Below, in pieces: positions 6,753 to 7,655 of a stretch of 43,496 nucleotides of DNA. This DNA is from a virus (Duplodnaviria; Heunggongvirae; Uroviricota; Caudoviricetes). Under the pieces are notes generated by a model. It made no database searches, was not told where the DNA came from, and saw only the letters and a program-made list of their open reading frames with translations. How positions within the stretch are numbered: position 1 is the first letter of the stretch; each line of letters opens with the position of its first letter. The stretch is taken from IMG/VR virus record IMGVR_UViG_2718218360_000017; one strand, written 5' to 3'. The position numbers were made by a program, and so were the translations under genes.

Positions 6753-6806
6753 ATGTCTGAATCTGTTTATGCCAGAAAACAACAGGCACCCCGGAGGGTG
6801 CCTGTG

Positions 6807-6926
6807 TCATGACGGAATAAAATTTCTGAAACTCTTCACATTTCCGGCAATTGCCTGTAGCCGCAATAATGACGCTGCATTACTTTTTTGATGCCTGAAA
6901 AATAACTCCATAACGTTAATCTTCAT
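6807..6926 (-). CDS. Candidate 39-aa ORF (MKINVMELFFRHQKSNAASLLRLQAIAGNVKSFRNFIPS) in an AT-rich insert between I and J
   Basis: Hand translation; Shine-Dalgarno gggagag 4-5 nt before the ATG; below the 60-aa cut-off of the ORF track. Confidence 0.3.
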   Translation of the reverse strand: MKINVMELFFRHQKSNAASLLRLQAIAGNVKSFRNFIPS

Positions 6927-6972
6927 CGTTCTCTCCCGCAGCTCCGCTAACTCTGCGGGATTTTTTTATTTT

Positions 6973-7655
6973 CATCCCCGCCCGATAACCACCACTTTCC
7001 CGTCTCCGCCCTCATCACGGGTGCTGATGTCCTGGGATATCCGTCGTGAACCAACCAGCATTTCACCATAAGGCACCGGCATCGGGGTTCCCCTGGGCAA
7101 TCATGTTATCCAGTGACGAAAAATACGTGTTCTGTTTACCCGGTTATCCCGTGCTTTTGTACTCCGGTACTTTAGCCTTCGGGGGCCAGCATCTGAGCCA
7201 CACCACCCAGAATCATGCTGGCTCCAAGTGAAAACAGCATCGTGGTGGCAGAAAAAACCACCGGCTGCCAGGGCTGAACCCCATAACGCCATTGATGCCC
7301 CGGCAGTGAAGAACGACCCCACGATGGCCGCCGCCCCCAGCACAATCTGCAGTCCACCCTTTCCGGCCCCGGCCAGTCGCGGCACAATATGGATGACCGC
7401 CCCCTCACCCAGAGGTTCGTGAAGACGGGCGTACACCGCCTCCGGTGCCGTGTCCTCACCGCGAATACGTATCTGGTACCAGCCTTCGTTCATCTGACGG
7501 CGGAATCCCGGCATCTGCAGCGACAGGGCACGGATGGCTTCCGCTGCCGTGTTCACGTACAGGCTGAGGCGGCGGCCAAATCGTTGCAAATCCCCGTGAA
7601 GGCAGATGCGTGCCAGTGGCGGTGACGCCAGACAGAATGCGTTCGTCGTTGCCAT
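6973..7655 (-). pseudogene. I: Tail assembly protein I, interrupted by several frameshifts
   Basis: Track ORFs 7101..7655 and 7172..7459 each carry I-like segments (..ARICLHGDLQRFGRR.. and ..FSLGASMILGGVAQMLAP..); C-terminal I-like segments (KQNTYFSSLDNM.., ..VVVIGR) found by hand in further frames. Confidence 0.75.

What the first reader, a model, noticed from the sequence alone, without database searches (positions are those of the whole stretch)
6778..6975. AT-rich insert between tail genes I and J carrying a 39-aa ORF flanked by two hairpins
Lambda has only a short I-J gap. Here about 230 bp separate them and contain a strong plus-strand intrinsic terminator (ctcccgcagctccgctaactctgcggga plus T-run, ~6931-6975), a small minus-strand ORF with a good Shine-Dalgarno (6807..6926), and a minus-strand terminator-like hairpin directly upstream of J (~6778-6806). 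This looks like a small moron or antisense-RNA module inside the tail operon, and the terminator in front of J would attenuate J expression.
Basis: seen in the sequence. Interest (0 to 1): 0.5.

Follow-up and report, generated by a model that had tools for sequence, protein, structure and literature searches.

The report
Known prophage sRNA gene (PasB/EcOnc22)
The extra 240 bp between tail genes I and J is an already described small regulatory RNA gene (EcOnc22, a relative of PasB) that points against the tail operon; the 39-codon reading frame is most likely just its mirror image.

Summary
The sequence features are real. The I-J gap is 240 bp (6732-6971), against 60 bp in lambda-type phages, and it is AT-rich. 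It holds a plus-strand terminator, a minus-strand hairpin next to J and a 39-codon minus-strand ORF.

The gap is 100% identical to the I-J gaps of prophages Sp11, Sp14 and Sp15 of E. coli O157:H7 Sakai. There, Tree et al. 2014 mapped the Hfq-bound sRNAs EcOnc22/23/24: about 85 nt on Northern blots and unstable without Hfq. After recalibrating coordinates, their peak falls on window 6892-6961, plus strand.

The same locus in EPEC E2348/69 encodes PasB (83 nt, Hfq-dependent). Its published Northern probe matches this terminator hairpin. The window therefore carries a divergent PasB-family allele at about 6877-6967 (+), antisense to the tail operon.

The ORF is the complement of the sRNA's RBS-like seed. 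It is intact in only 12 of 51 variants and shows no coding signature. The hairpin in front of J is ancestral, because lambda and 434 have its counterpart.

Still unexplained: a strongly conserved block upstream of the sRNA promoter, and what the sRNA regulates.

Verdict: already known, low interest.

The parts
6732..6971 (.). I-J intergenic region (240 bp), AT-rich; 100% identical to the I-J gaps of Sakai prophages Sp15, Sp14 and Sp11
   Evidence: Window coordinate = NC_002695.2 coordinate minus 2895959 for Sp15.
6877..6967 (+). PasB-family sRNA gene, EcOnc22/23/24 allele, antisense to the tail operon. The 3' end at the T-run is firm. The 5' end is inferred to lie between 6877 (7 nt after the conserved -10) and 6892 (the position aligned with the published PasB 5' end).
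   Evidence: E2348/69 PasB (83 nt) aligns to 6892-6967 at 73% identity. The published PasB Northern probe AATCCCGCAGTGATCGCGGAGCT matches the hairpin-1 variant of that allele. The recalibrated EcOnc22 Hfq peak falls at 6892/6901-6952/6961 on the plus strand.
6934..6967 (+). Intrinsic terminator of the sRNA: 7-8 bp G+C-rich stem, 11-nt loop, U7 tail
   Evidence: The stem is paired in 49-51 of 51 variants, there is one G-C to A-T double change, 14 different loops occur, and a T-run is always present.
6915..6926 (+). Conserved single-stranded stretch GTTAATCTTCAT just 5' of the terminator, the candidate seed.
   Evidence: [quoted passage not shown]
6865..6870 (+). Probable -10 hexamer AATAAT of the sRNA promoter. 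The -35 is weak in this allele.
   Evidence: Position 2 (A) is invariant and position 6 (T) is about 90% conserved in 51 variants. The homologous E2348/69 site is TTCACA-16-TATAAT, 11 of 12 matches. The window allele fails the consensus scan.
6806..6848 (.). Most conserved block of the gap: GTCATGACGGAATAAAATTTCTGAAnnTCTTCACATTT, read on the plus strand. It is indel-free and lies at a fixed 24 nt from the -10. It contains TCTGA-N6-TCACA (6825-6840). Its function is not established.
   Evidence: The spacing was checked by eye in three diverged alleles. Reading it as a regulator site is inference only.
6773..6805 (-). Tail-sense hairpin (10 bp, loop TCCG) plus TTGTTTTCT, directly upstream of J. 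It is the counterpart of the lambda/434 I-J hairpin.
   Evidence: C-G to T-A covariation at pair 6789-6798; local alignment with the 434 gap; the 434 record annotates a terminator at 15466-15485.
6807..6926 (-). 39-codon ORF, most likely not a gene

Best explanation
The I-J gap holds a small regulatory RNA gene of the PasB family. This allele was named EcOnc22/23/24 in E. coli O157:H7 Sakai. The gene sits between the stop codon of tail gene I and the hairpin that lambda-like phages normally carry in front of J.

The gene is read from the window's plus strand, against the tail operon. Transcription starts from its own promoter (-10 AATAAT at 6865-6870, inferred start near 6877) and ends at the terminator at 6934-6967, giving an RNA of roughly 76-91 nt.

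In the lysogen the tail operon is almost silent while this RNA is made. Hfq binds and stabilises the RNA. It most likely acts in trans by pairing a conserved pyrimidine-rich, anti-start-codon stretch (GUUAAUCUUCAU..CUCUCC) with ribosome-binding regions of host or prophage mRNAs.

What is shown:
- identity with the Sakai loci;
- homology, position and orientation relative to PasB;
- conservation of the terminator;
- published Northern, Hfq-crosslinking and RIL-seq evidence for identical or homologous sequence.

What is inferred:
- the exact 5' end and the promoter;
- the seed;
- the trans-acting mode for this allele.

The physiological targets are unknown.

The minus-strand 39-codon ORF is a by-product. 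Its apparent ribosome-binding site and ATG are the complement of the seed. The hairpin next to J is the ancestral I-J hairpin, and Q-antiterminated late transcription should read through it.
For: - The gap is 100% identical to Sakai Sp15, Sp14 and Sp11.
- Tree et al. 2014 Table S2 lists EcOnc22 (Sp15), EcOnc23 (Sp14) and EcOnc24 (Sp11). All are on the plus strand, about 85 nt by Northern, and destabilised in the hfq deletion strain. All three peaks sit at the same offset from J in the three prophages.
- The old-to-new coordinate shift of +137 to +146 was calibrated on AgvB1 and HnrS. It places the peak at window 6892-6961, plus strand.
- PasB lies at NC_011601 1466343->1466261 (minus strand, 83 nt), 5 nt beyond the stop of I and antisense to I and J. 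Its probe equals the hairpin-1 variant. It aligns to window 6892-6967.
- PasB drops by log2 -6.8 without Hfq. It is the second RNA in 99-100% of chimeras and has 37 partners. The neighbouring I and J genes have read counts of 5 and 15, against 482-1082 for PasB.
- The terminator stem is conserved with variable loops, and a -10-like hexamer is conserved.
- The ORF is not conserved.
Against: - No expression data exist for this particular window; all expression evidence is by identity or homology.
- The window allele has a poor -35, and the consensus scan finds no promoter.
- The inferred length (about 91 nt from 6877) does not exactly match the published sizes of about 85 nt and 83 nt, so the 5' end may be processed or my -10 assignment may be off.
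- No published source I could search states that EcOnc22 and PasB are the same family. That link rests on my alignment, which shows 73% identity over the sRNA.
- No Rfam family covers the locus.
- The targets and the seed are unproven.
Confidence: 0.85

Rival explanations
1. Type I toxin-antitoxin-like pair. The minus-strand 39-aa ORF would be a small toxic or regulatory peptide. The plus-strand RNA would be its cis-antisense repressor, covering the ribosome-binding site and the first ~16 codons. Each transcript would have its own terminator in a convergent layout.
For: - The geometry fits. The ORF has an SD and an ATG. The antisense RNA overlaps its 5' end. Terminators face outward on both strands.
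- The two experimentally studied alleles, Sakai and E2348/69, both keep an ATG-initiated ORF of 39-41 aa.
Against: - The ORF is intact in only 12 of 51 distinct variants (42 of 121 loci), while the sRNA body and terminator persist.
- Diversity peaks at codon position 2.
- The middle of the peptide differs radically between alleles.
- The peptide is charged rather than hydrophobic.
- There is no Pfam or PHROG match.
- No entry with matching coordinates appears in the supplementary files of the Sakai ribosome-profiling small-gene study. This is weak evidence, because reads from repeated prophage DNA are often discarded.
- No minus-strand Hfq peak is listed for these gaps.
Confidence: 0.04
2. A cis-acting control of the tail operon. 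The minus-strand hairpin would terminate or attenuate transcription before J. In addition or instead, the antisense RNA would pair with the late I-J mRNA and lower J expression.
For: - Hairpin 2 is a good tail-sense terminator-like structure: 10 bp followed by a T-rich tail, conserved with covariation.
- The sRNA is perfectly complementary to about 90 nt of the late transcript.
Against: - A counterpart hairpin exists in lambda and 434, which have the 60-bp gap and no sRNA. It is therefore not something this insert adds.
- Lambda-type late transcription is Q-antiterminated and reads through terminators (established knowledge).
- The sRNA ends more than 130 nt from the J ribosome-binding site.
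- The sRNA is documented with many trans partners on Hfq.
Confidence: 0.07
3. An inert remnant: a scar left after loss of a larger moron such as sodC, with hairpins that no longer serve any function.
For: The same junction carries sodC in other prophages. The sodC form shares the first ~100 nt next to I, including hairpin 1.
Against: - The identical sequence yields an abundant Hfq-bound RNA in Sakai, and the homologue does so in EPEC.
- Conservation is patterned: stems, the -10 and the seed are kept, while loops and the 5' body vary.
- In the sodC form it is the sRNA promoter that has been replaced. That suggests sodC arrived into a pre-existing sRNA module rather than the reverse.
Confidence: 0.03

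Closest known systems
EcOnc22 / EcOnc23 / EcOnc24 (Tree et al. 2014, Mol Cell; PMC4104026, Table S2; also listed with targets 'unknown' in the review PMC7873438)
   Same: The 240-bp gap is 100% identical to the three Sakai loci. Strand, position and terminator are the same. The published RNA is Hfq-bound, about 85 nt on Northern blots, and destabilised without Hfq.
   Different: Nothing differs in sequence. The window comes from a different prophage: it also carries AgvB, and over the surrounding 3 kb (5500-8500) its best match in complete E. coli genomes is O111:H8 strains at 98.8%.
PasB of EPEC E2348/69 (Pearl Mizrahi et al. 2021, PMC8550237; Zhu, Shabalina and Storz 2026 preprint, 10.64898/2026.05.13.724894)
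   Same: - Same genomic slot: it starts 5 nt beyond the stop of I, inside a 240-bp I-J gap.
- Same antisense orientation.
- Same terminator stem and U-tail.
- Same conserved ATCTTCAT stretch before the terminator.
- Same conserved upstream block and -10 position.
- Hfq-dependent.
   Different: - Only 73% identical over the sRNA, with a 6-nt and a 1-nt indel in the body.
- The 5' half and the terminator loop differ.
- The window allele has a weaker -35.
- The window type is multi-copy (median 3 per genome, up to 9, in 801 genomes). The E2348 type is usually single-copy (median 1, in 1105 genomes).
- The preprint's bacterial-genome BLAST used a word size of 28. By my reckoning that would not pick up this allele, whose longest exact match to PasB I read as about 17 nt.
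Morons of lambdoid phages (Juhala et al. 2000), and the sRNA pairs in the moron site downstream of PR' (AgvB, AsxR; Tree et al. 2014)
   Same: Extra AT-rich DNA lies between two late genes, is absent from lambda, has its own terminator and probable promoter, and is expressed from the prophage.
   Different: The cargo is an sRNA rather than a protein. It is read against the operon. It lies in the tail operon, not at the PR' site.
Lambda / 434 I-J intergenic hairpin (annotated 'terminator' at 15466-15485 in OL657226.1)
   Same: Hairpin 2 has the same position directly upstream of the J ribosome-binding site, the same TCCG loop with the CCTCCGGG core, and the same TTGT..TTT..TGG tail.
   Different: The stem is longer and stronger: -27 kcal/mol against -16 kcal/mol for comparable segments.

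Membership tests
PasB / EcOnc22-24 prophage sRNA family | Located in the I-J intergenic region of a lambdoid prophage, immediately beyond the stop of I, on the strand opposite the tail genes | tested here: met
   annotated I and J flank the published coordinates; alignment onto window 6892-6967, plus strand.
PasB / EcOnc22-24 prophage sRNA family | Sequence identity with the published loci | tested here: met
   100% identical to the Sakai Sp15, Sp14 and Sp11 gaps. 73% identical to E2348/69 PasB, with an identical terminator stem. The published probe matches the hairpin-1 variant. Recombinant intermediates link the two alleles (for example the sequence from L182).
PasB / EcOnc22-24 prophage sRNA family | [quoted passage not shown] | tested here: met
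PasB / EcOnc22-24 prophage sRNA family | Transcribed as an ~83-85-nt RNA that binds Hfq and depends on it for stability | not testable with these tools
   Published for the identical Sakai sequence and for PasB. No expression data exist for this window.
PasB / EcOnc22-24 prophage sRNA family | A curated covariance model (Rfam) matches | tested here: not met
   Rfam 15 gives nothing meaningful in 6500-7200 even at E<=10. Apparently no family has been built for this sRNA, so this does not argue against membership.
Moron (Juhala et al. 2000) | Extra DNA between two genes that are adjacent in related phages | tested here: met
   240 bp against 60 bp in 434, lambda-type phages and L007.
Moron (Juhala et al. 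2000) | Own promoter and own terminator | tested here: inconclusive
   The terminator is clear. A -10 is conserved, but the window allele fails the promoter consensus scan. The E2348/69 allele scores 11 of 12.
Moron (Juhala et al. 2000) | Base composition differs from the surrounding phage genes | tested here: met
   40-45% G+C against 58-59% in the flanks.
Type I toxin-antitoxin | A conserved small, usually hydrophobic, toxin ORF | tested here: not met
   The ORF is intact in 12 of 51 variants. There is no third-position excess of diversity. The peptide is charged rather than hydrophobic.
Type I toxin-antitoxin | An antisense RNA overlapping the toxin's translation start | tested here: met
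   The geometry holds: the sRNA at 6877-6967 (+) covers the ORF start at 6926 (-) and its SD.
Lambda-type I-J intergenic hairpin | Tail-sense G+C-rich hairpin with a T-rich tail directly upstream of the J ribosome-binding site | tested here: met

The most novel reading that the evidence does not exclude
The cassette may be more than a simple trans-acting sRNA gene. Two readings remain open.

1. The block upstream of the promoter (6806-6848) is the most conserved part of the gap, more so than the RNA itself. It is indel-free, sits a fixed 24 nt from the -10, and contains TCTGA-N6-TCACA, a 9-of-10 match to the CRP core as I recall it. It could be a host-factor site that ties the prophage sRNA to nutrient state. 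PasB is higher in LB than in glucose-containing DMEM.

2. The RNA could also act in cis on the late I-J transcript.

Related evolutionary points:
- The EHEC EcOnc22-24 RNAs are unrecognised PasB alleles. Counting them would change the reported picture in which PasB is largely absent from EHEC and EPEC strains.
- sodC morons have captured the PasB body and terminator as their 3' end.
Probability: 0.12. Interest if true: 0.45.

Novelty: already known. Interest (0 to 1): 0.2.

Why it matters
The finding explains a conspicuous oddity in the tail operon of many Shiga-toxin and related prophages. The oddity is an sRNA gene carried as cargo, not a protein moron and not an attenuator of J.

It also shows how the complement of an sRNA seed can pass for a small gene with a good ribosome-binding site.

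Three modest additions come from this work:
- The EHEC sRNAs EcOnc22-24 and EPEC PasB are alleles of one locus.
- The I-J junction is a recurrent cargo site. It can hold the sRNA alone, the sRNA in tandem, an alternative terminator, sodC or an IS element.
- The sRNA's upstream region is under stronger constraint than the RNA itself.

The biological role of this sRNA is still open, so the locus remains a reasonable target for functional work. As a discovery it is not new.

Tried and rejected
- HnrS. I suspected HnrS (EcOnc10-12, 'up to nine copies, late genes'; PMC13502914) because the copy numbers matched. I rejected it. Its mazF-complementary motif is absent from the window, and in Sakai it lies next to the lysis genes.
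- Rfam. Gathering and E<=10 searches gave nothing at the locus.
- Peptides. The 39-aa peptide and the overlapping 40-aa plus-strand ORF gave no significant match against Pfam or PHROGs.
- Published small ORFs. I searched the supplementary files of the Sakai ribosome-profiling small-gene paper for the ORF's coordinates in all three prophage copies and found no occurrence.
- Transcript ends. I wanted transcription start and end tables from the Sakai dRNA-seq/Term-seq study (PMC7547250), but no supplements are held. The HnrS paper has none either.
- PasB targets. I tried to read the PasB target list from the RIL-seq table. The file has 40 parts sorted by sRNA, and I stopped after part 1 to save look-ups, so no target names are reported.
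- Minus-strand Hfq peak. I looked for one in the gap in Tree et al. Table S2 and found none listed.
- Alternative sigma-factor motifs in the conserved block (sigma-E, sigma-32, sigma-28, sigma-54) were checked by eye only. None fitted in spacing.
- CRP-like site. Its centre is at -44.5 from the inferred start, which is not a canonical class I or class II position. I leave the block unexplained rather than call it a CRP site.
- Genome-contig scan. The scan with protein I returned only 5 loci, 3 of them in implausible hosts. It did not widen the taxonomic picture.

Full report
**1. What is in the sequence**

The tail genes of this prophage run on the minus strand. Gene I stops at 6972-6974 and gene J starts with GTG ending at 6731, so the I-J gap is 6732-6971, 240 bp.

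The gap is 44.6% G+C, while the flanking kilobases of J and I-K are 58-59%.

It contains three features:
- A hairpin at 6934-6960, followed on the plus strand by seven T.
- A 10-bp hairpin at 6782-6805, followed on the minus strand by TTGTTTTCT.
- A 39-codon minus-strand ORF at 6807..6926, preceded by GGGAGAG.

Lambda-type phages do have a short gap here. In phage 434, which shares lambda's coordinates at this point, I ends at 15444 and J starts at 15505. An E. ruysiae prophage also has 60 bp.

**2. Where else it occurs**

- A 251-bp query covering the gap matches 96 phage records, mostly Stx-converting phages. It also matches 801 of 5426 complete E. coli genomes, with a median of 3 copies and up to 9 per genome.
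- It is 100% identical to VT1-Sakai and to Sakai prophages Sp15, Sp14 and Sp11.
- Annotators leave the gap empty, apart from one 'hypothetical protein' in phage 1720a-02.

**3. Identification**

*EcOnc22/23/24.* Tree et al. 2014 (PMC4104026, Table S2) list three homologous orphan Hfq-binding sites:
- EcOnc22 in Sp15, at 2902714-2902774 (+).
- EcOnc23 in Sp14.
- EcOnc24 in Sp11.

EcOnc22 was seen as an RNA of about 85 nt on Northern blots and is destabilised in an hfq deletion strain.

In the current Sakai record, all three published coordinates fall inside the I-J gaps at the same offset from J.

The published coordinates belong to an older genome version. I calibrated the shift with two sRNAs of known sequence, AgvB1 and HnrS, and obtained +137 to +146. 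With that shift the EcOnc22 peak maps to window 6892/6901-6952/6961 on the plus strand. That is the RNA that ends at the plus-strand terminator.

*PasB.* Independently, Pearl Mizrahi et al. 2021 (PMC8550237, Table S6) describe PasB in EPEC E2348/69. It lies at NC_011601 1466343->1466261, on the minus strand, and is 83 nt long. Its Northern probe is AATCCCGCAGTGATCGCGGAGCT.

- In that genome I ends at 1466255 and J starts at 1466496, both on the plus strand. PasB therefore starts 5 nt beyond I, inside a 240-bp I-J gap, antisense to the tail genes.
- The probe is exactly the hairpin-1 variant of that allele in my alignment.
- PasB aligns to window 6892-6967 at 73% identity. It has the same terminator stem, the same U-tail and the same ATCTTCAT stretch before the stem.

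*Published expression data for PasB.*
- It falls by log2 -6.8 without Hfq.
- It is the second RNA in 99-100% of RIL-seq chimeras.
- It has 37 partners.
- It gives 482-1082 normalised reads, while I and J give 5 and 15.

The gene is therefore expressed from the lysogen while the tail operon is essentially off.

*State of the literature.* A 2021 review lists the targets of EcOnc22-24 as unknown. [quoted passage not shown] I found no paper that links EcOnc22-24 to PasB. That link rests on my alignment.

**4. Comparative anatomy**

I collected I-J gaps from IMG/VR contigs and reference genomes: 176 loci and 73 distinct sequences. Fifty-one distinct sequences are 233-260 bp long. Within these:

- The hairpin-1 stem is paired in 49-51 of 51. 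There is one G-C to A-T double change, 14 different loop sequences of 3-16 nt, and a T-run in every case. This is the behaviour of a working terminator.
- GTTAATCTTCAT, just before the stem, is 90-100% conserved per column. The 5' half of the RNA is variable and full of indels.
- A -10-like hexamer (window AATAAT, 6865-6870) has an invariant A at position 2 and about 90% T at position 6. In E2348/69 the same site is TTCACA-16-TATAAT, 11 of 12 matches. The window allele has a poor -35 and does not pass the consensus scan.
- The longest highly conserved, indel-free stretch is 6783-6848: hairpin 2 plus the block GTCATGACGGAATAAAATTTCTGAAnnTCTTCACATTT. The distance from TCACA to the -10 is 24 nt in three alleles whose intervening sequence is unrelated.
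- Hairpin 2 shows a C-G to T-A compensatory change at one pair (18 variants).

**5. The ORF**

- An ATG-initiated ORF of at least 30 codons ending at the same stop exists in only 12 of 51 distinct variants (42 of 121 loci). Elsewhere the ATG is ACG, or the frame is interrupted.
- Nucleotide diversity by codon position is 0.16, 0.29 and 0.22, so it is highest at position 2.
- The ends of the predicted peptide are conserved only because they coincide with the seed complement and the upstream block. The middle differs radically between alleles.
- Neither peptide matches Pfam or PHROGs.
- The supplementary files of the Sakai ribosome-profiling small-gene study contain nothing with these coordinates. 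This is weak evidence, because the region is repeated.

The 'good Shine-Dalgarno plus ATG' is the reverse complement of the sRNA's pyrimidine-rich, CAU-containing stretch. That is the expected appearance if the stretch is a seed that pairs with ribosome-binding sites.

**6. The hairpin in front of J**

The 60-bp gap of lambda-type phages already contains a hairpin: AAACCGCC-TCCG-GGCGGTTT, followed by TGTCGTTTATGG.

It aligns with the J-proximal part of the window's gap, sharing the AAA..TTTTAT lead-in, the CCTCCGGG core and the TTGT..TTT..TGG tail. The phage 434 record annotates it as a terminator.

Hairpin 2 is thus ancestral. The sRNA cassette was added between the stop of I and this hairpin.

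Late transcription in these phages depends on Q-modified polymerase, which reads through terminators (established lambda biology). The hairpin is therefore unlikely to limit J in lytic growth. In a lysogen it would stop stray tail-sense transcription. I could not test either statement.

**7. Other occupants of the same junction**

- An 851-bp form carries sodC (Pfam Sod_Cu, E = 3.9e-32) on the antisense strand. It keeps the PasB body and terminator but replaces the region holding the -10. There the PasB-like sequence lies downstream of sodC, after the hairpin that follows the sodC stop codon.
- Forms of 336-344 bp keep the sRNA, the promoter and most of the block, but have a different strong hairpin in place of hairpin 2.
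- Forms of 421-425 bp hold a second, diverged cassette in tandem (A-run, hairpin, body, block).
- One gap of 1599 bp contains two ORFs (103 and 225 aa) that I take to be the transposase genes of an IS element. I did not run a family search on them.

The I-J junction is therefore a recurrent cargo site.

**8. Distribution of the two alleles**

- The E2348/69-type gap matches 1105 genomes, usually once and mostly over only part of its length.
- The window-type gap matches 801 genomes, usually several times each.
- The preprint's genome survey used BLAST with a word size of 28 and the E2348/69 sequence as query. By my reading of the alignment, the longest exact match between the two alleles is about 17 nt. 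The EHEC allele would therefore have been missed in that survey.

**9. Verdict**

The feature is real and functional in the sense that it is a validated, Hfq-bound sRNA gene. It has been in the literature since 2014 (EcOnc22-24) and 2021 (PasB).

The coding ORF and the attenuation of J are not supported.

Three questions stay open:
- what the sRNA regulates;
- where exactly its 5' end lies;
- why the block upstream of its promoter is the most conserved part of the gap.

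Noticed in passing
window 26258-26319 (+), 26320-26513 (-), 26600-26659 (-): AgvB (anti-GcvB sRNA, a perfect match to the Rfam consensus, 96.5 bits) lies directly back-to-back with STnc100 (144.7 bits). A partial tRNA-like match (model positions 7-64) sits next to them. This looks like the convergent sRNA pair described for the moron site downstream of PR' in EHEC prophages.
   Followed up: no
window 6426-8207: Compared with the closest complete genome (CP077585, 98.8%), the window has 13 single-base indels in 3 kb, most in short homopolymer runs (G, C or A). 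All fall inside J, I or K and break their reading frames: I is split over three frames and the J N-terminus over three ORFs. None falls in the 240-bp gap. This looks more like homopolymer sequencing error than real decay, but I cannot tell which.
   Followed up: partly
L021 2083-2934 (and 19 other loci): In the sodC form of the I-J junction, sodC lies antisense to the tail operon. It is followed first by its own hairpin and then, about 190 nt on, by the PasB-like body and terminator. The PasB promoter region is replaced. A PasB-like RNA might therefore be made from the sodC 3' end.
   Followed up: partly
L096, L111, L150, L170 (gaps of 421-425 bp): A second, strongly diverged cassette lies in tandem with the first. 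It consists of an A-run, a CTCCCG..CGGGAG hairpin, a ~100-nt body and a copy of the conserved block. This may be a paralogous sRNA.
   Followed up: no
L118, L107, L047 and others (gaps of 336-344 bp): Hairpin 2 is replaced by a different strong hairpin (AAACCCCGGTATC..GATACCGGGGTTT) with T-rich sequence on both sides, so it may be bidirectional. The sRNA, its promoter and most of the conserved block are kept.
   Followed up: no
window 6745-6765 (-); L022, L088 and L108 for longer forms: A 7-nt unit (CAGACAT) directly upstream of the J Shine-Dalgarno varies in copy number between prophages. There are two copies here and up to four in gaps of 259-260 bp.
   Followed up: no
L005, L006, L008: Contigs labelled Streptomyces flavalbus, Parendozoicomonas haliclonae and a Clostridiales MAG encode an I protein 93-100% identical to the E. 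coli prophage protein. These are probably contaminating E. coli DNA in those assemblies.
   Followed up: no
window 6825-6840 (+): TCTGA-N6-TCACA lies within the invariant block and matches 9 of 10 core positions of the CRP consensus (recalled from memory, not scored with a matrix). Its centre is at -44.5 from the inferred sRNA start, which is not a canonical CRP position.
   Followed up: partly
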